From: Arthrobacter sp. | GTDB taxonomy: Bacteria; Actinomycetota; Actinomycetes; Actinomycetales; Micrococcaceae | Assembly (NCBI GenBank): GCA_031277795.1 | Contig: JAITLQ010000015.1 | Location: 193,667 to 217,666, forward strand | Direction of reading: 5' to 3' | DNA: 24,000 nucleotides | Part shown: piece by piece, positions 7,112 through 23,360 of the stretch | Numbering within the stretch: position 1 is the stretch's first letter | Layout of the letters: the number at the start of each line of letters is the position of its first letter | Program-made: the position numbers and the translations under genes | Notes under the pieces: model-generated | Told to the model about the DNA's origin: nothing | Database searches by the model: none | The model's input: only the letters and a program-made list of their open reading frames with translations

Positions 7112-7166
7112 CCACGCGGTTCGTTGACTTCCACGCGATGCGTGCGGGAGAGAACGAACCGCGTGG
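7112..7166 (+). other. 14-bp-stem hairpin in the unusual 145-bp kinase-regulator spacer
   Basis: CCACGCGGTTCGTT (7112-7125) is the reverse complement of AACGAACCGCGTGG (7153-7166). The 27-nt loop carries the palindrome CACGC-GAT-GCGTG (7132-7144). Confidence 0.6.
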
Positions 7167-7890: not shown

Positions 7891-9252
7891 CTACTCCTCC
7901 TCGAGTGCTAGTTCCGCCGGCTTCACGCGGAAGCCGCGTGTCGTGACGGCGAGCCACCCGGCGCCCAAGGCGAGCCAGGCGAGCCCCACCACGAGCGCCG
8001 GGAGCGACAGCGACGTCCACAGCCACACCGTCAGGGCGCAACCGATGCCGGGGAGCACTCCGTAGCGCAGCCCCGCGAGCGCCCCGCGGCGTTTCTCATC
8101 GATCAGGAAGTGCTTGATCACCGCGAGGTTCACGAGCGTGAACGCCGCGAGCGCGCCGAAGTTGATGAGGGAGGAAGCGAACGTCAGGTCGACGAACAGG
8201 GCGACGAGCGCCACGGCCGCGATGACCAGCGTTGACCCCACCGGCGTACCGAAGCGCGCCGAGAGCGTGCCGAACACGCGTCGCGGCAGCAGGCCGTCGC
8301 GGCCCATGGCAAAGAGCACCCGCGCGGCCGTGGCCTGCTGGGCCATGACGGCGCCGAAGCAACCGGCCACGAAAGCCGCGGTGAAGAAGGCGGTGAGCAG
8401 GTGCCCGCCGGCCGCCCCGACCACGTCGTTCGCCGCGGCATCGGGCGAGGTGTAGGCCCGCCAATCGGGGAACACCACCTGGCTGAGCCAGGACACCACG
8501 ATGAAGAGCACGCCGCCGCACAGCGTGACCAGCACGATCGCCCGTGGCACGGTGCGCGCCGGATCCTTGGTCTCCTCGGCGATCGAGGCCACGGCGTCGA
8601 AGCCGAGGAAGGAGTAGCAGAGCACGGCGGAACCGGCCAGGAGCGTGGCCACCCCGGTGTCCCCGGCGGGAACGGCGGCCACGGTGCCGCCCAACACGGG
8701 CTGGAGCGCCAGGAAGGCGAACACGACGAGGAAGACGACCTGCGCCGCGACGATGACATTGCTGACGCGGGAAAGCAGCTTCACGCCCGTCACGTTCAAC
8801 AGGGTGACGAGCACCAGCGCCGCCAGGATCCACACGGCCTGCGGCACGGCGGGCACCGCGGCGTGCAGGTACACGCCGATGACGAGGTAGGCCATCATCG
8901 GCAACAACACGTAGTCGAGCAGGATGGTCCAGCCGCCGAGGAAGCCGGCGTGGGCGCCGAAGGTCAGGCGCGTGTAGGAGTACGCGGCGCCCGCCTTCGG
9001 GTGGGCGCCGGCCATGGAGGCGTACGACGTCGCCGTGAACAGCATGGCCACGAGTGTCACCACGTACGCCAGGACGATCCGACCGTCCGTGAGCGTGTTG
9101 ACCACGCCGTAGGTCGTGAAGGAAGCCATGGGCATCATGTAGGCCAGGCCAAAGCCGAGCGCCCCGAGCAGGCCGCGCGAGCGGACGAGCGTGGGCCGCG
9201 CGGCAGCCGCGGTCGTGACCCCGCTCCCGGCCTGGCCCGTCGAGTTGCTCAT
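7891..9252 (-). CDS. APC-family amino acid/polyamine permease
   Basis: ATG at 9252 is preceded by AGGAGGTGG. The 453-aa polytopic protein contains ...AGAAYSYTRLTFGAHAGFLGGWTILLDYVLLP.... The track ORF 7891..10512 is over-extended through the upstream gene. Confidence 0.88.
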   Translation of the reverse strand: MSNSTGQAGSGVTTAAAARPTLVRSRGLLGALGFGLAYMMPMASFTTYGVVNTLTDGRIVLAYVVTLVAMLFTATSYASMAGAHPKAGAAYSYTRLTFGAHAGFLGGWTILLDYVLLPMMAYLVIGVYLHAAVPAVPQAVWILAALVLVTLLNVTGVKLLSRVSNVIVAAQVVFLVVFAFLALQPVLGGTVAAVPAGDTGVATLLAGSAVLCYSFLGFDAVASIAEETKDPARTVPRAIVLVTLCGGVLFIVVSWLSQVVFPDWRAYTSPDAAANDVVGAAGGHLLTAFFTAAFVAGCFGAVMAQQATAARVLFAMGRDGLLPRRVFGTLSARFGTPVGSTLVIAAVALVALFVDLTFASSLINFGALAAFTLVNLAVIKHFLIDEKRRGALAGLRYGVLPGIGCALTVWLWTSLSLPALVVGLAWLALGAGWLAVTTRGFRVKPAELALEEE

Positions 9253-10403
9253 GCTCCCACCTCCTGCATGGCGCGTTCCGAGTCGGCCCCGGCGCCGCCG
9301 AGCAGCCCCGAGTAGTCGAGGGCCACGCGCGGCGTCACGCACGGATTGCCCTCGGCGAGGTGCAGCACGCGCGCGGCCGGGTCGATCACCACGGACATGA
9401 TGGAGGCCCACTGCGAGGCCTCGGGCGAGCGCGGATCCGGGTGGCAGCAGATGGAACCGGGGGCATCGGTGTGATCGGTGAGCGCCTCGTGCAGCTCCGC
9501 CACGCCCACCACGGGATCGGCCTGCACCAACGATGTCAGCCGGCCCAGGCGCACATAGGAGTCGGACATCGCCACGGGCGCCAGGTCGGCGCCGCCGACC
9601 AGCGGCGAGACGAAGTGGTTCGTGTGGAACGTGGCCCCGCCGGATTCGATCACCGGGTGCACGCCCTCGGGCCCGCCCGGCTCCACCTCCACGTTGAGGA
9701 TCGCCCCGTTCTCGGTGCCGAGCACGTAATTGCCGGAGGAGGCGCGCCGGTGCCCGGCCAGCAGCTCCACGGCGTCGTACGCGTGCTCGCAATCGGCCAT
9801 GGCCCGCAGCATGACGTGGAACGGGACGCCGTCGGCGATCCCGTCCGCCGTGGTGACGAGCGTGTTGACGCAGAGCCCCAGCCCGGCCGCGTTGAGCATC
9901 GTCTTGCCGAGCAGACCGGCCTCCACGATGGTGACGTAGTTGGGCCCGTCCTCGCGCTCGACCTCCAGCAGGATCACCGAGTCGAAGGCGTGCACGAGCC
10001 AGTCCCAGTTCTGCCCGATCAGCGCGCGGTGCACCTCGGTGCGCTCGGGCGAGAGGGCAAAGGAACTGCACTCGCCCTTCGAGGAGCCGGCCCCGGCCGG
10101 GGTGTCGGTCAGCGCAGACCACAGGATCTCGGTGCGGCAGTTCATCGCCAGGACGTCGGCCACGGGCAGGCCGGAGCCCGCCGCGATGCCCTCGATCTCC
10201 CGCCAGATCGCGGGGAAGGCGGCGCGGATGGGCGCCTCGTGGCGCGCGGCGAGGCCCACGGCGTCGGCCCACGAGATGCCCTTGGCGGCGAAGCTCGCCT
10301 CGTAGCCGGCGCGGGCGGCGGCGATCTGCTCGGCCGCGAGGCGCCCGTACTGCTCGCCGCGCTCGCGCGGCGCGCCGGAGACGCGGATGCGGGGATACCC
10401 CAT
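9249..10403 (-). CDS. Peptidase C45 / acyl-CoA:6-aminopenicillanic-acid acyltransferase-like Ntn hydrolase
   Basis: Begins MGYPRIRVSG...RERGEQYG... A candidate autoproteolytic/nucleophile Cys sits at about residue 112 (SSKGECSSFAL), followed by IGQNWDW and a later GNYVLG. The stop overlaps the permease ATG (ATGA at 9249-9252). Confidence 0.75.
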   Translation of the reverse strand: MGYPRIRVSGAPRERGEQYGRLAAEQIAAARAGYEASFAAKGISWADAVGLAARHEAPIRAAFPAIWREIEGIAAGSGLPVADVLAMNCRTEILWSALTDTPAGAGSSKGECSSFALSPERTEVHRALIGQNWDWLVHAFDSVILLEVEREDGPNYVTIVEAGLLGKTMLNAAGLGLCVNTLVTTADGIADGVPFHVMLRAMADCEHAYDAVELLAGHRRASSGNYVLGTENGAILNVEVEPGGPEGVHPVIESGGATFHTNHFVSPLVGGADLAPVAMSDSYVRLGRLTSLVQADPVVGVAELHEALTDHTDAPGSICCHPDPRSPEASQWASIMSVVIDPAARVLHLAEGNPCVTPRVALDYSGLLGGAGADSERAMQEVGA

Positions 10404-11509
10404 CAGGCCCTCCCGAGGAGTCGCTGGATCGGGTCGAGGGACCAGACGCCCTCTTCGCCCGATGGCGTGGCCTCGTCTTCCGGCGCGGCTTCCGCTGGGC
10501 TGGGGGAGGCACTGCCCGACGGCGCGGGGCCGGCCTGGGCGCTCGCCTCGCCGCCCGCGGCGGCCGCGCTGGAAGCCGCCCGCACGTCGTCGAGCACCGA
10601 GGCCGGCAGGAAACCGGGCGCCTGCGCCCGTGGCAGCGTGCCCGTGAGCTCGCCCCGGGCGGCCAACGCGGCGACCTCGGCGGCGGTGCCGATCCAGGCG
10701 CCGGCGGCTTGCAGGTGCGTGATGACGCGCTCGATGAAGGCCAGGCGCGAGGGGCGGCCGGAGATCATGGGGTGGAAGGTGGTCATGACGTGGCCGCCGA
10801 GCGCGGCGATGCCGTCGATCTCGGGCTGCCAGACCTCCCAGACCTCGCGCGGGGAGCGGATGGTCTTGTCCCAGGTGTCGTTGGCGAACCAGAAGTGCGG
10901 GGCGTCGTCGAGGATCCACGAGACGGGCACCTCGGTGAGGGGATGGCTCTCGTGGCGGTACGGGCGGATGTCGTTGAGGAGATTGGAGCTGTACGTCAGG
11001 CCGGCCTCGGTGAGCAGGTCAAGGGTGTGGGCGCTGAAGTCCCACGAGGGGGAGCGGTAGCCCGTGACCTCGGCGCCGAGCGAGCGGAGCGTGTGCAGGC
11101 CCTGGTGCAGCTCGGCTTCCTCCTCCTCGCGCGTGAGGAGCGTGGGGGAGGTGTGCGAGTGGCCGTGGTGGGCCACCTCGTGGCCGGCGACCACGATGGC
11201 GCGGACCGCCTCCGGGTGGCGCAACGCGTCCTTGCCTGGAACGTAGAAGGTGGCCTTGACGCCCGTGCGCTCGAGCAGATCGAGGATCAAGGGGATGGCC
11301 ACGCGCGGGCCGTAGGCGCCCTGGGAGAGGACGCCGGGGCGGGAGGCGTTCTCGGGGTTCTCCCCGATCCAGACCTCTTCGGCGTCGAAGTCGAAGGACA
11401 GGGTGGCGCCGAAGGGGGCGCCTGTGGGCCAGGTGGGGGCGGTGAACGGGGTGGACAAGCTATCGCCTCGATCGGTGGCAAGTGAGTGGTCTACCTCACT
11501 ATGCGTCAC
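10403..11509 (-). CDS. Polysaccharide deacetylase (NodB-homology / CE4-like) family protein with an Ala/Pro/Ser/Glu-rich C-terminal tail
   Basis: Motifs LSFDFDAEE, VKATFYVPG, AGHEVAHHGHSH and GYRSPSWD are present. The start is uncertain: GTG 11509 as in the track, or a TTG 17 codons downstream with GAGG upstream. The stop overlaps the next ATG by 1 nt (TGATG at 10401-10405). Confidence 0.8.
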   Translation of the reverse strand: MTHSEVDHSLATDRGDSLSTPFTAPTWPTGAPFGATLSFDFDAEEVWIGENPENASRPGVLSQGAYGPRVAIPLILDLLERTGVKATFYVPGKDALRHPEAVRAIVVAGHEVAHHGHSHTSPTLLTREEEEAELHQGLHTLRSLGAEVTGYRSPSWDFSAHTLDLLTEAGLTYSSNLLNDIRPYRHESHPLTEVPVSWILDDAPHFWFANDTWDKTIRSPREVWEVWQPEIDGIAALGGHVMTTFHPMISGRPSRLAFIERVITHLQAAGAWIGTAAEVAALAARGELTGTLPRAQAPGFLPASVLDDVRAASSAAAAGGEASAQAGPAPSGSASPSPAEAAPEDEATPSGEEGVWSLDPIQRLLGRA

Positions 11510-11529
11510 CGGTGGGCGGGATCACAAGT

Positions 11530-11571
11530 GCAATGCGTTGCTTCTGTGTGAAATATCCACGCGTTGCGTGG
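11530..11571. promoter_or_regulatory. Bipartite conserved cis-element GCAATGCGTTGCT-N14-CCACGCGTTGCGTGG (copy 1)
   Basis: Located in the 72-bp gap between the Lrp/AsnC gene and the deacetylase operon. Both boxes recur with the same 14-nt spacing at 23261-23301 on the opposite strand. Confidence 0.55.
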
Positions 11572-11581
11572 TGTGTGGCGG

Positions 11582-12058
11582 CTAGTCCTGCGCGTCGACG
11601 ACGTGTTCGATCGGCGTGCCGTAGCGCAGGTGGTGCACCTTGAGAACGTGCACCGACTCGGTGTCCTGGATGCCGGGGATGCGCTCGATGGTGCCGCGCA
11701 TGAGCTCGTAGAGGTGCTCGGTGTTGCGCGTGTGGATCTCTGCGCAGAGGTCGAAGCGGCCCATGACGGTGGAGAGGTAGGTGATCTCGGGGATCTCAAG
11801 GAGCGCCGCGATGACCTCGTCGTGGCGCGCCGGTTCCACCTTGAGGTTGGTCAGGGTGAGCTGCGTGTTGGTCTCGCGCGGATCGGTGAAGGCCACGATG
11901 CGCAGGATGCCGGCGTCCTGCAGGCGCTTCACGCGCGTGCGCACGGTGGCCTCCGAGGTGCCCACGGTGCGGCCGATCTCGCGGAACGCGCGGCGCCCGT
12001 CCTCCTCGAGCTGGGCAATGATCGCGCGATCGAGGTCATCTAGGTGCAGTTCGGCCAT
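11582..12058 (-). CDS. Lrp/AsnC family transcriptional regulator
   Basis: The N-terminal HTH is LDDLDRAIIAQLEEDGRRAFREIGRTVGTSEATVRTRVKRLQDAGIL, followed by a C-terminal RAM/AsnC-type ligand domain. The product is 158 aa. Confidence 0.92.
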   Translation of the reverse strand: MAELHLDDLDRAIIAQLEEDGRRAFREIGRTVGTSEATVRTRVKRLQDAGILRIVAFTDPRETNTQLTLTNLKVEPARHDEVIAALLEIPEITYLSTVMGRFDLCAEIHTRNTEHLYELMRGTIERIPGIQDTESVHVLKVHHLRYGTPIEHVVDAQD

Positions 12059-12090
12059 GGCTGCGAGTCTATCCAGCAGCGTGGCGTGTT

Positions 12091-12110
12091 TTGTCTACAA
12101 GGGTAGACAA
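12091..12110. promoter_or_regulatory. Perfect 8-4-8 palindrome TTGTCTAC-AAGG-GTAGACAA in the divergent promoter region
   Basis: Read directly from the sequence. It lies 33 bp upstream of the Lrp ATG (minus strand) and 84 bp upstream of the PHP-pair start. Confidence 0.5.
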
Positions 12111-12136
12111 TTGATCCGCGTGTCGGTAGCTTCGCC

Positions 12137-12161
12137 GTGGAGGGCGCTTCCCGCCCTCCAC
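12137..12161 (+). other. 10-bp GC-rich stem-loop in the presumed 5' leader of the PHP pair
   Basis: GTGGAGGGCG (12137-12146) is the reverse complement of CGCCCTCCAC (12152-12161), with a 5-nt loop. It ends 32 nt before the GTG start. Confidence 0.5.
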
Positions 12162-12193
12162 CCGCCACCGCCCGTGCACACCGGAGGAATACC

Positions 12194-13240
12194 GTGCCCC
12201 CACTTGCGACCGTCAGCGGCGCCCTCGACCCGGCCCTCGTGCGCGGCGCCACCAGCGCCGGAGACCACCTCATCGGCGCGCTGCCCGCCACCCCGGGCGA
12301 GCGCGCCACGGACGTCTACTTCTTCGAGGCCCCGCTGACCCTCGAACGGCTCGGCGACGCCATGCTCGGCCGCGCCAACCGCGAGGACGCCACGCTCACG
12401 CCGGACACCGCGGCCGCCGAGCTCGAGGACTTTGCCGAGGCCGGCGGCGTGCTTGCCGTGGAGCTCACCCCGCTCGCGGCCGGGGCTGATCTCGCGGCGC
12501 TCGCCGGGGTCGAGGCGGCCAGCGGCGTGCGCATCGTGGCCTCCGCGCATGCCGGCGAGGGGCCGCTGGCGCTGCGGCTCGGGCCCGGTCGCGCTGGGGT
12601 GATCGTGCTGGGCCCGGCGGCCGAGCCCGCCGCCCGCGAGGAGGCGCTTGGCCTCGCCGCGCGCGGCGTTCCCGTGATGCTCGACGCCGCGTGGCTGGGT
12701 GGGGCCGAAACCTCACCGGGGCCGGTCGCCGGGGCGGGCGACCCCGTGCACGACGCCAGCGCCGCGGCGGGCGGAGCGGGCCGCGGCGCCGGTGCCGCCG
12801 CTGTCGCCCCGGCGCCGCTCGGTGCGCTGCACGAGCTGCTCGACACCGCGGAGGCGGCCGGGGTGCCCGCCGACCGCCTCGCCGTGCTCGGCGCCCGTTC
12901 CCTCGCCCACCGCCCCGACGCGCTGTCCGAGCTGGCGGCGCGAGGCGTCTACCTTCACTTCGGCTCGCTGGGCCGCATCCCTTCCGTGTACACCGAGGTG
13001 AGCGATCACGACGTCGCCGTGTCGCTCGCCGCGCTCACCGAGGCCGGCCACGGGGAGCGGTTGTTGCTCGCCGCCGGCCTGGATCGCCGCCACGCCCTGC
13101 GCGCCCACGGCGGACACGGGCTGGGCTTCCTGCCCCGTCAATTCCTTCCCTATCTCGGCTTCATGGGCATCGGCGCCGACGCGGCCGGTGTCCTCGCCTC
13201 CGACAACCTCGTCCGCTTCCTGGATTGGAGCCGCCCGTGA
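12194..13240 (+). CDS. Phosphotriesterase-homology (PHP/PTE, amidohydrolase superfamily) paralog with degenerate metal-binding residues
   Basis: GTG at 12194 is preceded by GGAGGA (12183-12188). The N-terminus LATVSGALDPALVRGATSAGDHLIG aligns with the family pattern TV.G.I....LG.T..HEH, but HEH has become GDH. The C-terminal region GHGLGFLPRQFLPYLGFMGI...NLVRFL parallels the downstream paralog. Confidence 0.7.
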   Translation: MPPLATVSGALDPALVRGATSAGDHLIGALPATPGERATDVYFFEAPLTLERLGDAMLGRANREDATLTPDTAAAELEDFAEAGGVLAVELTPLAAGADLAALAGVEAASGVRIVASAHAGEGPLALRLGPGRAGVIVLGPAAEPAAREEALGLAARGVPVMLDAAWLGGAETSPGPVAGAGDPVHDASAAAGGAGRGAGAAAVAPAPLGALHELLDTAEAAGVPADRLAVLGARSLAHRPDALSELAARGVYLHFGSLGRIPSVYTEVSDHDVAVSLAALTEAGHGERLLLAAGLDRRHALRAHGGHGLGFLPRQFLPYLGFMGIGADAAGVLASDNLVRFLDWSRP

Positions 13241-14385
13241 GCTCGCCCGCCGCCCCCGCGCCCCACGCCGTCGTGCCCTCCTCTCCGGCGGCGGCGCCGG
13301 CACCCGCGGTCACGACTGCCCCGGCGGGCGCCGTGCCCAACCTGGCCGGGCGCGTCCTCACGGTGGCCGGCCCGGTGGAGCCGGCCGCGCTGGGGCAGGT
13401 CTCGATGCACGAGCACGTCTTCCTCGACATCGTGCGTCCGGCCCACAACCCGCGCCCCGGCTACGACGCTCCGGCCGCGAGAGAACCGCTGGGCCTGCAG
13501 AACCTCGCCGCCGTGCGCGCCGGCGCGGCGCTCTACGCCAACGACCGGCTGGGCGACCCGGCGCTCATGGCACGCGAGGTCGGCGCCTTCCGCGACGCCG
13601 GCGGCGGCGCGCTGGTTGAGCTCTCCAACCTGGGCCTCGGGCGCGACGCGGAGGCGCTGCTGGGGCTCTACCGGACCACCGGGCTGCACGTGGTCATGGG
13701 CGCCGGCTGGTACGAGCGCGAGTTCCACCCAGCCGACATGGATCAGCGCAGCGTCGAGGAGCTGACGGGGATCATCGTCCGCGACATCGTCGAGGGCGTG
13801 GACGGCACGGGGATCCGCGCCGGGATCATCGGCGAGGTGGGCGTGGACGGGAATCCGCTGACCGCCAACGAGCTGAAGTCGGTGCGGGCCTCGGGCCGGG
13901 CCGCGCGGATCACGGGCGCGCCCATCAGCTTCCACCGCGGCGGCGCGGGGGAGGAGCAACACCGGGTGCTCGACGTCCTCGAGGAGGAGGGCGCCGACCT
14001 TTCGCGCGTGGTCATGGGGCACGCGGGCACCGTGGGGCACGACCTCGCGTTTGCGCGCCGGCTCCTGGCGCGCGGCGTGAGCGTGGAGTTCGACTTCCTG
14101 GGCACCACGGGCTCACCGTGGGGCACGCTCTTCCCCTTCACCGATCGCACCGTGGCGCGCGGCATCCTGAACCTCGTGGAGGACGGGCACGCCGGGCGGA
14201 TCGTGCTGGGCCACGATGTGTGCCAGGCGATCCAGCTCGCGGCCTTCGGCGGGCACGGCTACGGCTATCTGCACCGGCACTTCCTGCCGGAGCTCGTGCG
14301 CATGGGCCTGGACCCGGCGCTGCTGCGGACGTTCCTCGTGGAGAATCCGGCCCGCTTGCTGACGTTCGGGGCGCCTAGGCCATGA
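13237..14385 (+). CDS. Phosphotriesterase-homology protein (PHP/PTE family hydrolase), apparently catalytically intact
   Basis: GTG at 13237 overlaps the upstream stop (GTGA). After a Pro/Ala-rich leader of about 35 aa come LTVAGPVEPAALGQVSMHEHVF, GIIGEVG, ISFHRG, VVMGHAG and VLGHDV, the full ligand set as in E. coli PHP-type proteins. The 3' end overlaps the convergent gene by 11 nt. Confidence 0.85.
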   Translation: MSSPAAPAPHAVVPSSPAAAPAPAVTTAPAGAVPNLAGRVLTVAGPVEPAALGQVSMHEHVFLDIVRPAHNPRPGYDAPAAREPLGLQNLAAVRAGAALYANDRLGDPALMAREVGAFRDAGGGALVELSNLGLGRDAEALLGLYRTTGLHVVMGAGWYEREFHPADMDQRSVEELTGIIVRDIVEGVDGTGIRAGIIGEVGVDGNPLTANELKSVRASGRAARITGAPISFHRGGAGEEQHRVLDVLEEEGADLSRVVMGHAGTVGHDLAFARRLLARGVSVEFDFLGTTGSPWGTLFPFTDRTVARGILNLVEDGHAGRIVLGHDVCQAIQLAAFGGHGYGYLHRHFLPELVRMGLDPALLRTFLVENPARLLTFGAPRP

Positions 14386-17622: not shown

Positions 17623-17725
17623 GCCACCCGCCGTCGGGCACCGAAAGACCAAGATCGGAGTGCCTTGGGTACGCTTTTTGGCCAAAAAGCGTACCCAAGG
17701 CACTCCGATCCTGGGGGAAAACGGG
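17623..17725 (+). repeat. Palindromic intergenic element, copy 1 (REP/MITE-like): conserved flank plus perfect 58-bp palindrome
   Basis: The structure is GCCACCCGCCGTCGGGCAC (17623-17641), then 11 nt, then GATCGGAGTGCCTTGGGTACGCTTTTTGG|CCAAAAAGCGTACCCAAGGCACTCCGATC (17653-17710), then CTGGGGGAAAA. It starts 5 nt after the GNAT stop, between convergent genes. Confidence 0.9.
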
Positions 17726-17864: not shown

Positions 17865-18932
17865 CTAGACGTCGATCGCGAGCTTCGCGGAGAGCGCGCG
17901 CGAAACGCACACGAGCATGCACCCGCCCGTGGCGCGCTCGGCCTCGGTGTAGAGGTCGTCGCGGTGGTCCACCTCGCCGTCAACGACCCGCACCTCGCAC
18001 GTGCCGCAGAAGCCCATCTCGCAGGAGCTCGGGTGGTCAACGCCGGCGCGGCGGATGGCCTCGAGGGCCGTCTCGTCGGCGCCGACCTCGACCTCGAGCC
18101 CCGAGGCGGTCAGCGCCAGCGTGAACCCGCCGGAGCCGTCCGTCGCCACGGCCACGGGGGCCGGCGCGAAGAGCTCGAGGTGTAGGTCGTCGGCGCGGCC
18201 GGCGTCCTCCATCAGACCCGTCAGCGCGTTCATGAGCCCGCCGGGCCCGCAGCAGTACACCTGCGCGCCAGTGCTGCCGGCCACGACGGCCGCGAGGTCC
18301 GGGTGGCCGGCCACGTCCTGCGGCACGAGCACCACATTCTCTCCGCCAAACTCCATGAGCTCGGCCAGGAAGGCGAAGTGATCGTTGGATCGCGCGGCGT
18401 AGACGAGTCGCCACGGCTTGCCGGCCCGTTGCACCTCGCGCGCCATGGCCAGCATGGGCGTGATGCCGATGCCGCCGGCCACGAACACGTACTTCTCGGC
18501 GTCCTCGAGCTCGAAGTTGTTGCGCGGGGCGGAGACGGTCAGCTCCACGCCGGCCCGCAGCTCGCGGTGCACCTCGCGGGAACCGCCGCGGCCGTCCACC
18601 ACCTCCAGCACGCCGATCCGATAGTGCGAAAGATCGGAGGGATCCGAGCAGAGCGAATACTGGCGCACCACCCCGGAGTGCAGGTGCACGTCCAGGTGCG
18701 ATCCCACGCTCCACGCGGGCAGCGTGCCCCCGCCTACCGGCACCAGCTCGTACGAGGTGATGCCGGCGGCCGTGCGGCGCGTGCCCTCCACGCGCACCAC
18801 GAAGGTGGCAGCGCGCTCCGAACCCGGCCCCACGCCGTCGGGCAGCAGCCCCGAAGCGGGCTCAACGTCTGAAGCGGGCGCAGCATCTGCGGCGGGCGCC
18901 GTGGCGCCCGGCCGCTCCGTCACTGTGGTCAC
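17865..18932 (-). CDS. PDR/VanB-type oxidoreductase (flavin reductase domain plus plant-type [2Fe-2S] ferredoxin domain)
   Basis: RQYSLCS is the flavin-binding RxYS motif and GGIGITPMLAM the NAD(P)H-binding motif. The C-terminal CEMGFCGTCE...MLVCVS supplies the cluster cysteines. The GTG start at 18932 lies 5 nt after the oxygenase stop. Confidence 0.9.
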   Translation of the reverse strand: MTTVTERPGATAPAADAAPASDVEPASGLLPDGVGPGSERAATFVVRVEGTRRTAAGITSYELVPVGGGTLPAWSVGSHLDVHLHSGVVRQYSLCSDPSDLSHYRIGVLEVVDGRGGSREVHRELRAGVELTVSAPRNNFELEDAEKYVFVAGGIGITPMLAMAREVQRAGKPWRLVYAARSNDHFAFLAELMEFGGENVVLVPQDVAGHPDLAAVVAGSTGAQVYCCGPGGLMNALTGLMEDAGRADDLHLELFAPAPVAVATDGSGGFTLALTASGLEVEVGADETALEAIRRAGVDHPSSCEMGFCGTCEVRVVDGEVDHRDDLYTEAERATGGCMLVCVSRALSAKLAIDV

Positions 18933-18937
18933 GGTGA

Positions 18938-19969
18938 TCAGCCCTGGACCTTGGTCATGAGCTCGTTGAAGCAGCGGCGGTAATTGAGCGTGAAGAGGTC
19001 GGCCGGGACGGAGAACTCCTGGACCTCGGCGTCCCAGGGGATCTCACGCGGGAAGACGCCGTCAACGATCGAAAGGTCCTCGCGGTAGACCATGTCCTCC
19101 ACGCGCAGGCATTCCTCGAGCGAGGCGCCCTTGTAACCCACCTGGTTGGCGACGCCCCAGAAGATCTTGACCTCCTCGTAGGAGACCGGCGACGGGAAGC
19201 CCGCCACGACGCGCTTGCCGAGGCGCTCGTAGTCGTAGGTGATGGAGGCCAGGCCGGGCGCCGAGCAGAAGTAGTGCATCATCGCGTTGCCGTCCTCGGC
19301 CCACTCGCCCGTGGAGGCGTTGAGCGGGCGATCCATCCAGACGTTGAGCCCCTCACGCACGGGCGTCAGCGGCTCCACGACCTCGGGGCTCGGCCCCATC
19401 GAGACCTGGTGCACAAACGGGAAGTGCGCCACGTCGCGGAAGTTCTCCACGGTGATGGCCACGCCCACGGCGGAGTCGAGGATGTCGCCGGCGAGCCACT
19501 CCCATTCAACGCCCTCCCAGTACGGGACCTCGTACACATCGCGGATCGGGTCCTCGAGGACGGTCCAGACGTGGCCGTACTTCAGCTGCACGGGGTAGGT
19601 CTTGATGGCGGCCTGGGGCGGGATCTTCGACTGGTCCTCGAGCGAGGGGACGCGCACGCAGGCACCGTCCGCCGCGCCAAACTGCCAGCCGTGGTACGGG
19701 CAGCCGATCGACTTTTCATGGACGGCGCCGGCGGAGAGATCAGCGCCGCGGTGCGGGCAGCGGCGGTCCTGGACGGCCACGGTGCCGTCGCCCGAGCGGT
19801 AGACGACCAGGTCGACGCCCAGCAGCGTGGCGCGCTGCGGCTTGTCCAGGTCGACGATGCGGGCCACGGGGAACCAGCTCTGGCGCATGGCCTGCTCGGC
19901 GAGCTCGCGCTTGGTGCGCTTGGCCGCCGGGGCGGCGCCGGCCTGCGGGTGAGGGGCGGTGGTGGTCAT
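18938..19969 (-). CDS. Rieske [2Fe-2S] non-haem-iron oxygenase, VanA/PaO-like (class IA monooxygenase/demethylase type)
   Basis: ATG at 19969 is preceded by AGGAG. The Rieske motif is CPHRGADLSAGAVHEKSIGCPYHGWQF and the mononuclear iron motif ENFRDVAHFPFVH (E-x3-D-x2-H-x4-H). The track ORF to 20953 is over-extended. Confidence 0.9.
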   Translation of the reverse strand: MTTTAPHPQAGAAPAAKRTKRELAEQAMRQSWFPVARIVDLDKPQRATLLGVDLVVYRSGDGTVAVQDRRCPHRGADLSAGAVHEKSIGCPYHGWQFGAADGACVRVPSLEDQSKIPPQAAIKTYPVQLKYGHVWTVLEDPIRDVYEVPYWEGVEWEWLAGDILDSAVGVAITVENFRDVAHFPFVHQVSMGPSPEVVEPLTPVREGLNVWMDRPLNASTGEWAEDGNAMMHYFCSAPGLASITYDYERLGKRVVAGFPSPVSYEEVKIFWGVANQVGYKGASLEECLRVEDMVYREDLSIVDGVFPREIPWDAEVQEFSVPADLFTLNYRRCFNELMTKVQG

Positions 19970-19992
19970 GGGGTACTCCTGTGGGTCTGTGG

Positions 19993-20096
19993 GTTTTTTT
20001 CCCCGCTTCGGAGTGGGTTGGGTACAAAAAACGGCCGAAAAGCGTACCGAACCCACTCCGATCCTTGAGGGGGGTGAGTGCCCGGCGGCGGGTGGC
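19993..20096 (-). repeat. Palindromic intergenic element, copy 2 (inverted orientation, partly degenerate)
   Basis: The minus strand reads GCCACCCGCCGCCGGGCAC (20096-20078), then 14 nt, then GATCGGAGTGGGTTCGGTACGCTTTTCGGCCGTTTTTTGTACCCAACCCACTCCGAAGC, then GGGGAAAAAAA. The arms at 20008-20025 and 20044-20061 are 17/18 complementary. It sits between the SDR and Rieske genes. Confidence 0.85.
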
Positions 20097-20118
20097 CGGG
20101 TCGGGCAGGGGAGGCGGC

Positions 20119-20895
20119 TTAGGCGCCCACGACGAGGGCGCCGCCGTTGACGGAGAGGGTCTCGCCCGTCATGAAGGACGCGGCATCGGAGGCGAGGAAC
20201 GCCACGACGGACGCGATCTCCTCCGGCTCGCCCAGTCGACCGAGCGGCACGGCGGCGACCTCCATCTCGTAGGCCTCCTCCGGCACCATGCGCGTGCGGA
20301 TGGCTCCCGGGGCGATGGCGTTCACGAGGATCCCGTCGGCCACGAGGGCCTTGGAGAGCGCCTTCATGAGCGCCAGCTGCGCCGCCTTGGAGGTCATGTA
20401 GCCAAAGGAATGCCCGTCCGGCACCTGCCCCCACTGGGAGGAGATGAAGACGATGCGGCCCACCGAGGACGCTCGCAGCGCCGGCACCGCGGCCCGGGAG
20501 AGGGCGTAGGGCGCCTGCACGTTGACCTTGAAGTAGGCCTCCAACGAGGCCGGCTCGGTCTCCTCGAGCGTGCGGAAGTCGTGCATGATGCCGGCGTTGT
20601 GCACCAGCACGTCCAGAGCGCCGAAGTTCTCCAGCGCCACCGACGCGAGGTGCTCGGGCGCCCCGGCCTCGGTGATGTCGCCGGCCACGGAGGCCACGTC
20701 GGCCCCGGCCGCGCGCAGCTCGTCCGCCGTGCGGGAGAGCTCGTCGGCGTCCAGATCGGCGAGCACCAGGCGGGCGCCCTGGGCGGCCAGAGCGCGGGCG
20801 TGGGCGGCCCCCATGCCGCGGGCGGCCCCGGTGATGAGCGCGACGCGGCCGGAGAGCGGCTTGGCCGCCGCCGCCGAGTTCACTGCCTGGTTCAC
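20119..20895 (-). CDS. Short-chain dehydrogenase/reductase (SDR, FabG-like)
   Basis: TGAARGMG matches the TGxxxGxG motif. NAG and the catalytic YMTSKAA (YxxxK) are present. GTG at 20895 overlaps the upstream stop (GTGA). Confidence 0.92.
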   Translation of the reverse strand: MNQAVNSAAAAKPLSGRVALITGAARGMGAAHARALAAQGARLVLADLDADELSRTADELRAAGADVASVAGDITEAGAPEHLASVALENFGALDVLVHNAGIMHDFRTLEETEPASLEAYFKVNVQAPYALSRAAVPALRASSVGRIVFISSQWGQVPDGHSFGYMTSKAAQLALMKALSKALVADGILVNAIAPGAIRTRMVPEEAYEMEVAAVPLGRLGEPEEIASVVAFLASDAASFMTGETLSVNGGALVVGA

Positions 20896-21365
20896 AGCGC
20901 GGCCGGGTTGCCGGAGGCGATGCCGGCGCTCGCGCCCGCCCCGACGACCGCACCGGACTCGTGCGGTTCGGTCACGTAGATCATGTTGCCGTCCGGGTCG
21001 AAGAACGCGCGGTACTGGTACCAGCGCCCCGAGGGGTGCTCCCATACGGTCTTCTCGCCCGTGACCCACTGGACCTTCCCGTCCAGCTCGGCGTAGGCCT
21101 CGTCGAGGGAATCGACGGCAAACGCGATGGAGTCGTAGCCCTGCGGGTCCTGCTCGTTGATGCCGGTGCGGCGGAAGACCGGGGCCGCGTGCTCGGTGGC
21201 GAAGAGGTACAGGGTGAGGTTGCCGAAATCGATGGCGGCCCACCCCTCCCCGGGCTCGAAGGGCAAGAAGAAGTCCAGGCCAAGGGTCTGCGTGTAGAAC
21301 TCGACCATCTCGTCGAAGTTGTTGGACAGGATGTCCATGTTGTCGATGCGCTTGAGCTTCAGCAC
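20892..21365 (-). CDS. VOC (glyoxalase/bleomycin-resistance/extradiol dioxygenase) family protein
   Basis: GTG at 21365 is preceded by AAAGGAG. LKLKRIDNMDILSNNFDEMVEFYTQTLGL is a typical VOC N-terminus, followed by ...SIAFAVDSLDEAYAEL...FFDPDGNMIYV. The product is 157 aa. Confidence 0.85.
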   Translation of the reverse strand: MLKLKRIDNMDILSNNFDEMVEFYTQTLGLDFFLPFEPGEGWAAIDFGNLTLYLFATEHAAPVFRRTGINEQDPQGYDSIAFAVDSLDEAYAELDGKVQWVTGEKTVWEHPSGRWYQYRAFFDPDGNMIYVTEPHESGAVVGAGASAGIASGNPAAL

Positions 21366-21490
21366 GTCGGCTCCTTTGTTGCTGTTCCCCCGCCCGGTTT
21401 TTGGGCGCAGTGGGGGAGGGACTGATGGGGTGTCGCGTCGGGGACAGTGCCCGACGCCGGGTGCTCGCCTCGGCGAGCGGAAGGCGCGTG

Positions 21491-21513
21491 GGTGCGGGGC
21501 CGGGCCCCGCACC
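21491..21513 (-). terminator. GC-rich hairpin 9 nt downstream of the APC permease stop (candidate U-tract-less terminator/attenuator)
   Basis: The sequence GGTGCGGGGCC-G-GGCCCCGCACC has perfect 11-nt arms. No T-run follows. Confidence 0.4.
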
Positions 21514-21521
21514 TCACGGGC

Positions 21522-23168
21522 TCAGCGGGTGGGTGCGGTGGTCGACACGGCGGGCTCGGCGCCGTGCTCGGCCTGGGCCGCCTGGGCCGCCTGGGCCGCT
21601 TGGGCCGGCGCGGGTGCCTCGGCCGCGACCGCGGCCCCTTTGCCCGCGGCCGGGGCGCTGGAAGCGTCCGCCTGGCTGGCAGCCGGCGCCGCGACGTCGT
21701 GCACCGGGTCCGTCTCCGGCGCCTCGCCGGGGCGGCGCCAGATGACCGGGTGGCCGTCCTGCCTCTGGCGCACGAGGTAGAGCACGATCGAGAGGGAGAG
21801 CACGGCGAGGCCGATGAAGACCTCGCGGAAGCTGCCGTAGCCCGTGATCTCCGAACTCGTCACGCCGACCGCCAGGATGACGAGGTCGATGACGCAGAGG
21901 GCGCCGGCGATCCAGGTCCAGATGCGGCCAAGGCGGATGGGGCGTGGGAGGTCCGGGTGGCGGCGGCGCAGGCGGACGTAGCCGGAGAGCGTCAGGATGT
22001 GGCAGATGAGGTAACCCATGATGCCCGCCACGACCACGGCGAGGGCCTCGCCCACGAAGAGGATGAGGAACACGTTGACGAGCAGGTCCAGGCTCATGGC
22101 GCGCGCCGGGACGCCGGCCTTGTTGAGCTGACCGAGCTGCCTGACGGTGAGGCCGTCCACCGCCGCGCCGTGGAGGACGCGGCCGCCGGCGGCGGTGGTC
22201 ATGACCATGAGGAGCATGAGGCCGGCGATGAGGCAGAGCGTCATGAACCAGCCGGAGCCGGGGATGATCTGCTCGAAGGCCTGCAGGTAGAAGGTCACGG
22301 GGTTGGCGGAGATGTCGGCCTGCGGGGCGAGGCCGGCCACGCCGAGCGGGACGAGGAAGTACACGGCGACCACAAACACGCCGGCCATGCGCATGGCGAT
22401 CTTGGCGTCCTTCACGGGCTTCTTCATCTCGGGGACGAAGGAGGCCACCGACTCGATGCCGTAGACGGACCAGGCCATGACGAACATCCAGGCCAGGGAG
22501 ACCTGCCAGTCCGGGAAGCCGGTGTCGCCGAAGCCCACCGTGAGGTGGCTCGGGTCCCAGTGCGGGGAGATGAGCGGCGCGAGGGCGAAGAGGACGATCG
22601 GGATGAGGATGACCACGCCCGTGGCGTACATGATGCCCATGGCCGGGCGCATGCCCAGGATGTTCAGGCCCCACCCGAGGAAGAGGACGCCCAGCGCGAT
22701 GACGTGAGGCAGGCCGATCTGGGCGATGCCGGTGCTGATGGTCCACGTGGCATCGGGGAACCATTCGGCCTGGATCAGGGTGCCGATCTGCAGCCCGTAG
22801 ATGGCCAGGGAGCTGGACCAGGAGAACCAGTAGCCGAAGGTGGCGAGCGGGCCGGCCAGGGTGGTGGTCTGCTTCCAGGCCTGGTTGGCGTAGAGGGAGA
22901 TGCCGCCGACCTTGTGACCGAACATGGCGGCGAGCTCGGAGTAGATGTTGTTCTGCAGGGCCGCGAAGCAGGCCACGGCGATCACGAGGGCGATGGCCGT
23001 CCAGGCGCCCAGGGCGCCGAGGGCGTAACCGACCAGGATGAACAGGGCCGCCGGGATCGAGAGCGAAATGGTGAAGCCGTCCCACCAGCGCAGCGTCTGC
23101 TGGTACTCCGGCTGCGTGCCGGAGGGGGACGGGGACTGCGTCGGTAACGCCGTTGAGGGTGCGTCCAC
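21522..23168 (-). CDS. APC-superfamily amino acid/amine permease with an Ala/Gln/Pro-rich cytoplasmic C-terminal tail
   Basis: GTG at 23168 is preceded by AGGAGA. The 548-aa polytopic protein includes WDGFTISLSIPAALF...GGISLYANQAW...FGYWFSWSS.... The last 80 aa or so are low-complexity. Confidence 0.88.
   Translation of the reverse strand: MDAPSTALPTQSPSPSGTQPEYQQTLRWWDGFTISLSIPAALFILVGYALGALGAWTAIALVIAVACFAALQNNIYSELAAMFGHKVGGISLYANQAWKQTTTLAGPLATFGYWFSWSSSLAIYGLQIGTLIQAEWFPDATWTISTGIAQIGLPHVIALGVLFLGWGLNILGMRPAMGIMYATGVVILIPIVLFALAPLISPHWDPSHLTVGFGDTGFPDWQVSLAWMFVMAWSVYGIESVASFVPEMKKPVKDAKIAMRMAGVFVVAVYFLVPLGVAGLAPQADISANPVTFYLQAFEQIIPGSGWFMTLCLIAGLMLLMVMTTAAGGRVLHGAAVDGLTVRQLGQLNKAGVPARAMSLDLLVNVFLILFVGEALAVVVAGIMGYLICHILTLSGYVRLRRRHPDLPRPIRLGRIWTWIAGALCVIDLVILAVGVTSSEITGYGSFREVFIGLAVLSLSIVLYLVRQRQDGHPVIWRRPGEAPETDPVHDVAAPAASQADASSAPAAGKGAAVAAEAPAPAQAAQAAQAAQAEHGAEPAVSTTAPTR
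21571..21606 (-). repeat. In-frame 9-bp tandem repeat x4 (GCCTGGGCC) in the permease tail
   Basis: The plus strand reads GCCTGGGCC x3 then GCTTGGGCC. On the coding strand this encodes AQAAQAAQAAQA. Confidence 0.9.
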
Positions 23169-23249: not shown

Positions 23250-23301
23250 ACGCTAACAGTCACGCAATGCGTGGCGCAAGTCTCTTCCAGCAACGCATTG
23301 C
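23250..23301 (-). promoter_or_regulatory. Bipartite conserved cis-element (copy 2) overlapping a candidate promoter of the APC-permease operon
   Basis: The minus strand reads GCAATGCGTTGCT (23301-23289), N14, CCACGCATTGCGTG (23274-23261). A possible -35 TTGCGC (23279-23274) and -10 TAGCGT (23255-23250) place the CACGC-N3-GCGTG palindrome inside an 18-nt spacer. Confidence 0.45.
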
Positions 23302-23360
23302 GAATTTCTTGGGTGCAGCGGTGTCGCATGTCCCGCTGGTGAGTTTGCACCAAACAATGA

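What the first reader, a model, noticed from the sequence alone, without database searches (positions are those of the whole stretch)
11530..11571. Bipartite cis-element GCAATGCGTTGCT-N14-CCACGCrTTGCGTG shared by the promoter regions of both APC-permease operons
Copy 1 (plus strand, 11530-11571) lies in the 72-bp gap upstream of the deacetylase-C45-permease operon. Copy 2 (minus strand, 23301-23261) lies upstream of the permease-VOC-SDR-Rieske cluster.

The 13-nt box is identical in both copies. The second box differs at one base inside the CACGC-N3-GCGTG palindrome. The spacer length is exactly 14 nt in both, while the spacer sequences are unrelated (TCTGTGTGAAATAT versus GGAAGAGACTTGCG).

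Conserved boxes with a fixed spacing and a free spacer are the signature of protein-binding sites rather than of a duplication.

Inference: the two transporter-linked catabolic loci are co-regulated by one factor. The adjacent Lrp/AsnC protein is the obvious candidate.

Caveat: the module is in opposite orientation relative to the downstream gene at the two loci.
Basis: seen in the sequence. Interest (0 to 1): 0.6.

Follow-up and report, generated by a model that had tools for sequence, protein, structure and literature searches.

The report
Phased Lrp operator sites, two promoters
The two look-alike DNA elements are real: each is a pair of palindromic binding sites three helical turns apart. 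They most likely let the neighbouring Lrp/AsnC regulator control two halves of one uncharacterised catabolic gene cluster that has been split in this bacterium. This is a well-supported new example of an ordinary kind of gene switch.

Summary
The exact 13-mer and the second box occur only at these two places in the 3.6-Mb genome (a Galactobacter, Micrococcaceae). Spacer (0/14) and flanks are unrelated, so this is not a duplication.

I read the element differently. It is not two different boxes but two copies of one palindromic operator (core ACGCA-W-TGCGT) whose centres lie 31 bp apart. This removes the orientation caveat.

In relatives from nine other genera, including Rhodococcus, Mycolicibacterium, Acrocarpospora and Paraburkholderia, the window's two loci form one cluster. 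It reads permease, deacetylase, C45, VOC, SDR, Rieske, reductase, always next to an ortholog of this Lrp/AsnC gene. Their intergenic regions carry arrays of 2-4 of the same sites at 30-32 bp spacing.

A matrix built only from those other genera ranks the window's four sites 2nd, 3rd, 13th and 22nd in the whole genome. Only these two loci have a partner site at 31 bp. Thirty-five Lrp-paralog loci show no such arrays beside the gene.

Verdict: this is an operator array of the cluster-specific Lrp/AsnC regulator (about 0.8). The direction of control is inferred: probably repression relieved by a ligand. It is a new member of a known kind, of moderate interest. Binding itself is untested.

The parts
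11557..11571 (.).
   Evidence: Read. PWM score 13.5, rank 22 in the genome, with a partner at 31 bp.
11526..11540 (.). The right half is perfect and the left half is degenerate.
   Evidence: PWM score 14.6, rank 13 in the genome, with a partner at 31 bp. Conserved in G002.
11494..11508 (.). Copy 1, possible third (half) site centred at 11501 (TGCGT half only), 32 bp from the middle site. It overlaps the putative -10.
   Evidence: Core match at up to 2 mismatches, at 32-bp spacing, in both G000 and G002. This is weak evidence on its own.
11498..11527 (-). Putative promoter of the deacetylase-C45-permease operon: TTGTGA (11527-11522), 18 nt, CATAGT (11503-11498)
   Evidence: Identified by eye and conserved in G002. 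Not found by the strict consensus scan. Inference only.
11582..12058 (-). Lrp/AsnC-family regulator gene, the candidate trans-factor
   Evidence: Pfam HTH_AsnC-type plus AsnC_trans_reg. Orthologs sit in every version of the cluster. The HTH and recognition helix are nearly invariant.
7891..11458 (-). Operon 1: polysaccharide-deacetylase-like gene (10403-11458, likely TTG start), C45/AAT hydrolase (9249-10403), APC permease (7891-9252)
   Evidence: Pfam and NCBIfam matches. Start chosen from alignment A1.
23260..23274 (.). The 13-bp palindrome is perfect.
   Evidence: PWM score 19.0, tied for the top of the genome list (listed second), with a partner at 31 bp.
23291..23305 (.).
   Evidence: PWM score 18.6, rank 3 in the genome.
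23250..23279 (-). Putative promoter of the permease-VOC-SDR-Rieske-reductase operon: TTGCGC (23279-23274), 18 nt, extended -10 TGTTAGCGT (23258-23250). The proximal operator site lies in the spacer.
   Evidence: TG-n-TA-nnn-T is present in 11 of 11 anchored orthologous promoters, with a TTG-type -35 element 17-18 nt upstream. Not found by the strict E. coli-type scan.
17865..23168 (-). Operon 2: APC permease (21522-23168), VOC (20892-21512), SDR (about 20119-20877), Rieske/VanA_C oxygenase (18938 to about 19975), Fer2/NAD reductase (17865-18932)
   Evidence: Pfam and NCBIfam matches.

Best explanation
**What the element is**
Each 'bipartite element' is a pair of operator sites for the cluster-specific Lrp/AsnC regulator encoded at 11582-12058. 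At copy 1 there is probably a third site.

- One site is a 13-15-bp palindrome. The consensus from other genera is CTACGCAATGCGTAG, with core ACGCA-W-TGCGT and an A/T centre.
- Neighbouring sites lie 31 bp apart, which is three helical turns. Dimers of one Lrp oligomer (typically an octamer in this family) can therefore contact them on one face of the DNA and bend or wrap the promoter.

**What it controls**
The two arrays place two operons under one regulator:
- deacetylase, C45 hydrolase, permease;
- permease, VOC, SDR, Rieske oxygenase, reductase.

These are the two halves of a single conserved catabolic cluster that is contiguous in other bacteria.

**Direction of control (inferred)**
- At the permease promoter the proximal site fills the spacer between the conserved -35 and extended -10.
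- At the deacetylase promoter a half-site overlaps the putative -10.
- The unliganded regulator therefore most likely represses by occlusion, and the pathway substrate or an intermediate relieves or remodels the complex.
- A dual repressor/activator role, as in other local Lrp-type regulators, is not excluded.

**Shown versus inferred**
- Shown: site sequence, uniqueness in the genome, spacing, conservation, linkage to the Lrp gene.
- Inferred: that Lrp binds, its oligomeric state, the sign of regulation, the promoter positions, the ligand.
For: 1. **Uniqueness.** The exact boxes occur only at the two loci in 3.6 Mb. A PWM trained only on non-Galactobacter sites ranks the four window sites 2nd, 3rd, 13th and 22nd genome-wide, and only these two loci have a partner site at 31 bp.
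2. **One cluster.** In an unnamed MAG, Specibacter, Paeniglutamicibacter, Rhodococcus, Mycolicibacterium, Arthrobacter, Paenarthrobacter, Acrocarpospora, Paraburkholderia and genome G091, the genes of the two window loci lie together. An Lrp ortholog (45-71% identical in alignment A2; G091 not aligned) sits inside or divergent to them.
3. **Same sites in the orthologous promoters.** The proximal site always lies directly 5' of TGTTAGCGT. In Acrocarpospora and Paraburkholderia, which were not used for training, the best PWM hits of each 16-kb locus all fall in the intergenic regions beside the Lrp gene. The Acrocarpospora centres are 109/140/171/202.
4. **Unbiased 7-mer count.** GCAATGC, CAATGCG and CATTGCG each occur in 11 of 12 foreign intergenic regions, 17-19 times against fewer than 1 expected.
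5. **Phasing.** Of 71 site-pair distances, 21 fall at 30-32 bp, 13 at 61-64 and 6 at 92-95. Random placement gives a mean of 2.2 and a maximum of 9 in 5000 trials.
6. **Co-occurrence.** The Lrp ortholog, the cluster and the motif are found in G000 and G002 and in none of the four other Galactobacter genomes.
7. **Regulators.** Lrp is the only regulator common to all clusters. The LuxR-PBP regulator present in two relatives has no ortholog in G000 and is missing from the Specibacter locus.
8. **Control.** Thirty-five Lrp-paralog loci (272 kb) have no arrays beside the gene.
9. **Recognition helix.** The HTH and recognition helix are nearly invariant across the orthogroup.
10. **Family behaviour.** Semi-palindromic sites in clusters, spaced two or three helical turns apart, are the described behaviour of Lrp-type regulators (PMC2995911; BarR, PMC10201364).
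Against: - No binding or expression data exist.
- The half-sites are G+C-rich, unlike the A/T-rich E. coli Lrp consensus.
- In this genome the Lrp gene's own upstream region (12059-12136) has no such site and carries a different palindrome. Autoregulation is therefore not evident here.
- The array sits in a different register relative to the putative promoters at the two loci: about -24/-55 at one and about -11/-42/-73 at the other.
- Those promoters are predictions that the strict consensus scan did not find.
- In G091 the two clearest sites are 38 bp apart, not 31.
- The compared genomes are related to one another, so the statistics overstate independence.
Confidence: 0.8

Rival explanations
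1. The sites are genuine operators, but they are bound by a different transcription factor encoded elsewhere in the genome. The Lrp gene would then be only a passenger in the cluster.
For: There is no direct binding evidence. The motif is G+C-rich and sharper than classical Lrp sites. No site lies in the Lrp gene's own upstream region in this genome.
Against: Such a factor would have to travel with the cluster across two phyla without ever being linked to it. Lrp is the only regulator gene shared by all versions. The other regulators nearby (LuxR-PBP, MarR, LacI, TetR) differ from genome to genome. The 31-bp phased arrays of semi-palindromes fit the Lrp family.
Confidence: 0.12
2. The element acts as RNA: a hairpin formed by box 1 pairing with box 2, serving as a leader, attenuator or terminator of the Lrp transcript.
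For: Box 1 and box 2 are mutually complementary. Copy 2 folds into a 10-12-bp hairpin with z-scores of -1.8 to -2.1. Copy 1 lies just 3' of the Lrp stop codon.
Against: - No Rfam family matches, and no terminator-like T-run is present.
- Copy 1 does not adopt the same fold.
- At copy 2 and in 11 of 11 orthologous promoters the sites lie upstream of, or within, the conserved -35/-10, so they lie upstream of the predicted start and would not be in the mRNA.
- Third and fourth sites at 31-bp steps have no meaning for a hairpin.
- The complementarity follows trivially from each site being a palindrome of one consensus.
Confidence: 0.04
3. The resemblance is a relic of a duplication, a dispersed repeat (REP/MITE), or chance, and has no regulatory role.
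For: The 13-mer is identical down to non-core positions in the two copies.
Against: - Spacer identity is 0/14 and the flanks are at background identity.
- There are only two copies in the genome.
- In G002 the non-core positions differ while the core is kept.
- The sites are conserved across genera and phyla at a fixed position relative to the promoter.
Confidence: 0.02

Closest known systems
BarR (beta-alanine-responsive Lrp-type regulator of Sulfolobales) and its barR-aminotransferase intergenic operator (PMC10201364)
   Same: - A local Lrp-type regulator linked to a catabolic gene or operon, divergent from it in most relatives of this cluster.
- Several 15-bp semi-palindromic sites in the control region.
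- DNA thought to be wrapped around an octamer.
- A ligand that remodels the complex rather than simply releasing it.
   Different: - BarR is archaeal and its sites are A/T-rich (for example TTGTACTTTTTACAA).
- Here the half-sites are G+C-rich (ACGCA), the target is a 7-gene cluster of unknown substrate, and in this genome the regulator is co-directional with one target operon and 11.7 kb from the other.
- Nothing here has been tested by binding.
Bacterial local Lrp/AsnC activator-repressors of catabolic operons
   Same: - A small Lrp/AsnC protein encoded next to an amino-acid or amine catabolic operon.
- Multiple sites in the shared control region.
- An effector that is the substrate or a related amino acid.
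   Different: - Those regulators mostly activate from sites upstream of the -35.
- Here the proximal site lies between the -35 and -10, which suggests occlusion.
- The motif and the regulated pathway are different and undescribed.
E. coli global Lrp and its degenerate A/T-rich sites
   Same: The same protein family. Cooperative binding to clustered sites phased by whole helical turns (PMC2995911).
   Different: - This protein is a cluster-specific paralog: only two paired-site loci exist in the genome.
- It is below the NCBIfam Lrp cut-off (39.8 bits against 233).
- Its sharply defined G+C-rich palindrome does not resemble the E. coli consensus.

Membership tests
Lrp/AsnC-type operator array | Each site is a (semi-)palindrome of about 13-15 bp with an A/T centre, contacted by one dimer | tested here: met
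   Box 2 at copy 2 is CACGC-ATT-GCGTG, a perfect palindrome. The symmetrised matrix built from foreign sites gives CTACGCAATGCGTAG. The family description is in PMC2995911.
Lrp/AsnC-type operator array | Sites occur in clusters of several imperfect copies | tested here: met
   Two or three sites per locus in the window and 2-4 in relatives, with varying quality.
Lrp/AsnC-type operator array | Centre-to-centre spacing of two or three helical turns | tested here: met
   The spacing is 31 bp at both window loci. Across 16 regions, 21 of 71 pair distances fall at 30-32 bp, against 2.2 expected by random placement, with harmonics at 61-64 and 92-95.
Lrp/AsnC-type operator array | A cognate Lrp/AsnC regulator gene is genetically linked to the sites | tested here: met
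   Pfam HTH_AsnC-type plus AsnC_trans_reg at 11582-12058. Orthologs are adjacent in all relatives. Paralog loci lack the arrays.
Lrp/AsnC-type operator array | The protein binds the sites specifically, and binding or architecture responds to a small-molecule effector | not testable with these tools
   This needs EMSA or footprinting and a ligand screen.
E. coli-type global Lrp site (A/T-rich degenerate 15-mer) | Match to the A/T-rich Lrp consensus and many sites genome-wide | tested here: not met
   The half-sites are ACGCA/TGCGT. Only two paired loci exist in 3.6 Mb. The protein scores 39.8 bits against the cut-off of 233 for NCBIfam Lrp. The consensus itself is recalled from knowledge.
Dispersed repeat (REP/MITE) | Many copies scattered through the genome, with similarity extending over the whole unit | tested here: not met
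   There are two copies only. Spacer identity is 0/14 and the flanks are at background.
Cis-regulatory RNA (riboswitch, leader or intrinsic terminator) | Match to a described family, or a conserved stable fold located in the transcript | tested here: not met
   No Rfam match at gathering score. No terminator-like sites. The two copies fold differently, with z-scores of -0.2 to -2.1. The sites lie upstream of the conserved -10.

The most novel reading that the evidence does not exclude
The cluster is an undescribed catabolic pathway found in two phyla, probably for an N-methylated or N-acylated amine or amino acid. It is governed by an Lrp subfamily with an unusually sharp, G+C-rich operator read at a strict 31-bp phase.

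Galactobacter may record regulatory rewiring. The cluster was split, and the LuxR-PBP co-regulator that precedes the deacetylase gene in the closest relatives was lost. After that, a new Lrp site array arose in front of the orphaned deacetylase-C45-permease half, in a different register to its promoter. This kept both halves in one regulon.
Probability: 0.4. Interest if true: 0.55.

Novelty: new member of a known kind. Interest (0 to 1): 0.4.

Why it matters
- **A specific, testable operator.** The finding gives a site model (ACGCA-W-TGCGT, 31-bp phase) for an uncharacterised Lrp/AsnC subfamily. Lrp sites are usually too degenerate to predict.
- **Functional linkage.** It ties two separated loci of this genome into one regulon. 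It also shows they belong to one conserved seven-gene catabolic cluster of unknown substrate, present in Actinomycetota and Burkholderiales.
- **A handle on the pathway.** The regulator's ligand should be the substrate or an intermediate. A reporter built on these sites could therefore be used to find the substrate.
- **A model system.** The clean phasing makes this a convenient natural system for studying how an Lrp oligomer reads several sites.
- **Limit.** It does not reveal a new kind of mechanism.

Tried and rejected
- **Dispersed repeat or MITE:** rejected. There are only two copies in the genome.
- **Duplication relic:** rejected. Spacer identity is 0/14 and flank identity is 6/40 and 9/40.
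- **RNA element or terminator:** rejected. There is no Rfam hit, there are no terminator-like sites, and the two copies have no shared fold.
- **Strict E. coli-type promoter scan:** found nothing at either locus. The promoters rest on comparative conservation only.
- **Third 'CACGC-N3-GCGTG' site at 7131-7145** (from another note on this window): PWM score 10.8, no 31-bp partner, and 109 equal or better hits genome-wide. This is chance level.
- **Lrp sites in the Lrp-PTE intergenic region 12059-12136:** none found.
- **Lrp sites upstream of the deacetylase gene in the MAG and in Paeniglutamicibacter:** none found. A LuxR-PBP regulator gene intervenes there.
- **Class-level search for Lrp orthologs:** 0 of 400 sampled genomes, so the cluster is rare. 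In the family sample the permease ortholog was found in 5 of 301 genomes including G000.
- **Substrate:** NCBIfam gave no equivalog for any cluster protein. Two literature searches for the gene combination found nothing relevant.
- **Two errors of mine:** one search failed on a wrong reading frame, and two paper searches failed on term syntax.

Full report
**1. The observation**

- Copy 1 is at 11530-11570 on the + strand.
- Copy 2 is at 23301-23261 on the - strand.
- Each reads GCAATGCGTTGCT, then 14 nt, then CCACGC(G/A)TTGCGTG.

The genome has 3,618,316 bases in 18 contigs and is 71% G+C. In it, the exact 13-mer and the exact second box each occur twice, and only here. From base composition I estimate about 0.05 chance occurrences of the 13-mer.

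The spacers share 0 of 14 bases. The 40-nt flanks share 6 and 9 bases. The resemblance is therefore confined to the boxes and is neither a duplication nor a dispersed repeat.

**2. Gene context**

Pfam and NCBIfam give the following genes on the minus strand.
- Lrp/AsnC regulator, 11582-12058.
- [copy 1]
- Polysaccharide-deacetylase-like protein.
- C45/AAT hydrolase, 9249-10403.
- APC permease, 7891-9252.

Further along the window, also on the minus strand:
- [copy 2]
- APC permease, 21522-23168.
- VOC protein.
- SDR.
- Rieske/VanA_C oxygenase.
- Fer2 reductase, 17865-18932.

Alignment with seven homologues (A1) shows that the deacetylase ORF is over-extended at its 5' end. The likely start is TTG at 11458, not GTG at 11509. 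The Lrp-deacetylase intergenic region is thus about 123 bp rather than 72.

The organism is a Galactobacter (Micrococcaceae). This is judged from the title of the nearest public record, which is 91% identical in Lrp.

**3. Re-reading the element**

Box 2 is a 13-bp palindrome: CACGC-ATT-GCGTG. Box 1 contains the same core (GCA-A-TGCGTTG) with a degenerate left half. In the sister genome G002 the equivalent of box 2 at the deacetylase locus is the perfect 15-bp palindrome CAACGCATTGCGTTG.

The element is therefore two copies of one site, core ACGCA-W-TGCGT. The centres are 31 bp apart: 11533/11564 and 23267/23298. What is swapped between the loci is which site is the better palindrome.

**4. 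The two loci are one cluster elsewhere**

The Lrp proteins are 45-71% identical to the window's in alignment A2.
- In an unnamed wastewater MAG, Specibacter cremeus and a Paeniglutamicibacter, the order is permease, VOC, SDR, Rieske, reductase, Lrp. A LuxR-PBP regulator follows in two of them. In those two a deacetylase and a C45 gene come next; the Specibacter locus lacks both.
- In the MAG, a pair of PTE genes lies divergent from the permease.
- In Mycolicibacterium, Arthrobacter, Paenarthrobacter and Acrocarpospora, one operon reads permease, deacetylase, C45(-VOC), SDR, Rieske, reductase. In Acrocarpospora the permease gene comes last. The operon lies divergent from the Lrp gene.
- In a Paraburkholderia the same operon lies just downstream of the Lrp gene.

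The Lrp gene is the only regulator common to all. The other nearby regulators (LuxR-PBP, MarR, LacI, TetR) vary from genome to genome. G000 has no ortholog of the LuxR-PBP protein.

The window arrangement can be derived from the MAG arrangement in two steps: moving the permease-to-reductase block away, and losing the LuxR-PBP gene. This is inference.

**5. Phylogenetic footprint**

The promoter regions of the orthologous operons all contain the same sites. When 11 regions are anchored on a shared TG-n-TA-nnn-T element (TGTTAGCGT in the window), three features line up.
- The T, A and final T of the hexamer are invariant, as expected for an extended -10.
- A TTG-type -35 lies 17-18 nt upstream.
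- One operator site fills the spacer, with further sites about 31 and 62 bp upstream.

Acrocarpospora and Paraburkholderia were not used to build the matrix. In both, the best hits of each 16-kb locus lie in the intergenic regions beside the Lrp gene. The Acrocarpospora centres are at 109, 140, 171 and 202.

An unbiased 7-mer count in the 12 non-Galactobacter regions puts GCAATGC, CAATGCG and CATTGCG on top. Each is present in 11 of the 12 regions and occurs 17-19 times, against fewer than 1 expected from flanking DNA.

**6. Phasing**

I took core matches at up to 2 mismatches in 16 intergenic regions (5.1 kb). Of 71 pair distances, 21 fall at 30-32 bp, 13 at 61-64 and 6 at 92-95. Random placement of the same number of sites gives a mean of 2.2 at 30-32, and never more than 9 in 5000 trials.

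Without the two Galactobacter genomes, 15 of 63 distances are still at 30-32. The genomes are related, so this is not a formal probability, but many genera and two phyla contribute.

At copy 1 a third, half-strength site is centred at 11501, which is 32 bp further on. It is present in both G000 and G002.

**7. Specificity in this genome and genus**

A matrix trained only on non-Galactobacter sites was run over all of G000.
- It ranks the copy 2 sites 2nd and 3rd (19.0 and 18.6 bits).
- It ranks the copy 1 sites 13th and 22nd (14.6 and 13.5 bits).
- No other high-scoring hit has a partner at 28-34 bp.

Of six Galactobacter genomes, only G000 and G002 carry the motif pairs, the permease ortholog and the Lrp ortholog. 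The other four have only paralogs that are at most 37% identical.

Thirty-five loci around Lrp paralogs (272 kb) show no arrays next to the gene. The HTH and recognition helix (SEATVR-RVKRLQ) are almost invariant across the orthogroup, even at 45% overall identity. This matches the conserved DNA motif.

**8. Mechanism**

Lrp-type regulators are described as follows (PMC2995911; BarR, PMC10201364).
- They bind clusters of imperfect semi-palindromic sites.
- One dimer contacts each site.
- Centres are spaced by two or three helical turns.
- The DNA is often wrapped on an octamer.

All the sequence-level features of that description are met here.

The sign of control is inferred only. At the permease promoter the proximal site lies between the -35 and -10, centred at about -24. 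At the deacetylase promoter the putative -10 (CATAGT, 11503-11498) overlaps the half-site.

This geometry favours repression by occlusion, relieved or remodelled by a ligand. I put this at roughly 0.5-0.6, given that Lrp binds at all. A dual role is the main alternative. The two arrays sit in different registers relative to their putative promoters, and the strict consensus scan found neither promoter.

**9. Rivals**

- **Unlinked transcription factor.** This cannot be excluded without biochemistry, but such a factor would have to follow the cluster across phyla while never being linked to it.
- **RNA role.** This is unlikely for four reasons.
  - There is no Rfam hit.
  - There is no terminator.
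  - The two copies fold differently.
  - The sites lie upstream of the conserved -10.
- **Chance, duplication or dispersed repeat.** These are contradicted.

**10. Comparison with what is known, and novelty**

This is a new member of a known kind: a local Lrp/AsnC regulator with a phased operator array next to its catabolic cluster. It is closest in logic to BarR, and to BkdR, PutR and AldR (the last three from my own knowledge).

It is not an E. coli-type global Lrp site. The motif is G+C-rich and sharply defined, and only two loci carry pairs.

I found no description of the cluster or the motif.
- NCBIfam has no equivalog for any of its proteins.
- Two literature searches were empty or irrelevant.

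The cluster's substrate is unknown. Weak similarities to TMAO permease and to the glycine-betaine monooxygenase reductase hint at a methylated amine, which is speculation.

**11. Limits**

- The sites used for the matrix were first picked by eye. The 7-mer count and the two held-out loci guard against that bias.
- The cluster is rare. The permease ortholog was found in 5 of 301 sampled Micrococcaceae genomes, counting G000. The Lrp ortholog was found in 0 of 400 sampled genomes of the class. The comparative set is therefore about a dozen loci.

Noticed in passing
window 12093-12108 (Lrp / PTE divergent intergenic region); L003:963, L046:2758; G000 contig C15 at 48485 and 50484, with one-mismatch copies at 53498, 58951, 72195: A different perfect palindrome, GTCTAC-N4-GTAGAC, lies upstream of the PTE gene pair. 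The same type of palindrome sits upstream of the PTE pair in G002 and in the wastewater MAG. Several more copies cluster on contig C15 of this genome. This is probably the operator of a second, separate regulon. It is not an ACGCA-W-TGCGT site.
   Followed up: partly
window 17649-17714 and 20033-20070: A long, near-perfect palindromic element (33-nt arms, 97% complementary) has a related copy elsewhere in the window. That second copy lies in the unusually long gap between the SDR and Rieske genes, inside the operon controlled by copy 2. In relatives this gap is about 20-60 bp.
   Followed up: no
window 7131-7145: CCACGCGATGCGTGC lies between the histidine-kinase and response-regulator genes and resembles box 2. 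It scores only 10.8 with the foreign-trained matrix and has no partner at 31 bp. With 109 equal or better hits genome-wide, it is at chance level.
   Followed up: yes
window 12137-14385; L046:540-2683: The two tandem phosphotriesterase-family genes also belong to the cluster neighbourhood. In the MAG they are divergent from the permease operon. In the window they are divergent from the Lrp gene. This fits a rearrangement that moved the permease-to-reductase block away.
   Followed up: partly
L041:5530-7470 and L045:5647-7422: The two closest relatives with a co-linear cluster carry a LuxR(GerE)-periplasmic-binding-domain regulator gene between the Lrp and deacetylase genes, and they have no Lrp-type sites in front of the deacetylase gene. 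This gene has no ortholog in G000, and in G000 an Lrp site array occupies that place.
   Followed up: partly
window 10403-11509: The deacetylase ORF is over-extended at its 5' end. Homologues begin about 17-24 codons downstream of GTG 11509, and a TTG at 11458 preceded by GAGG is the likely start. The Galactobacter proteins also have a C-terminal low-complexity extension of roughly 60-95 residues that most homologues lack.
   Followed up: partly
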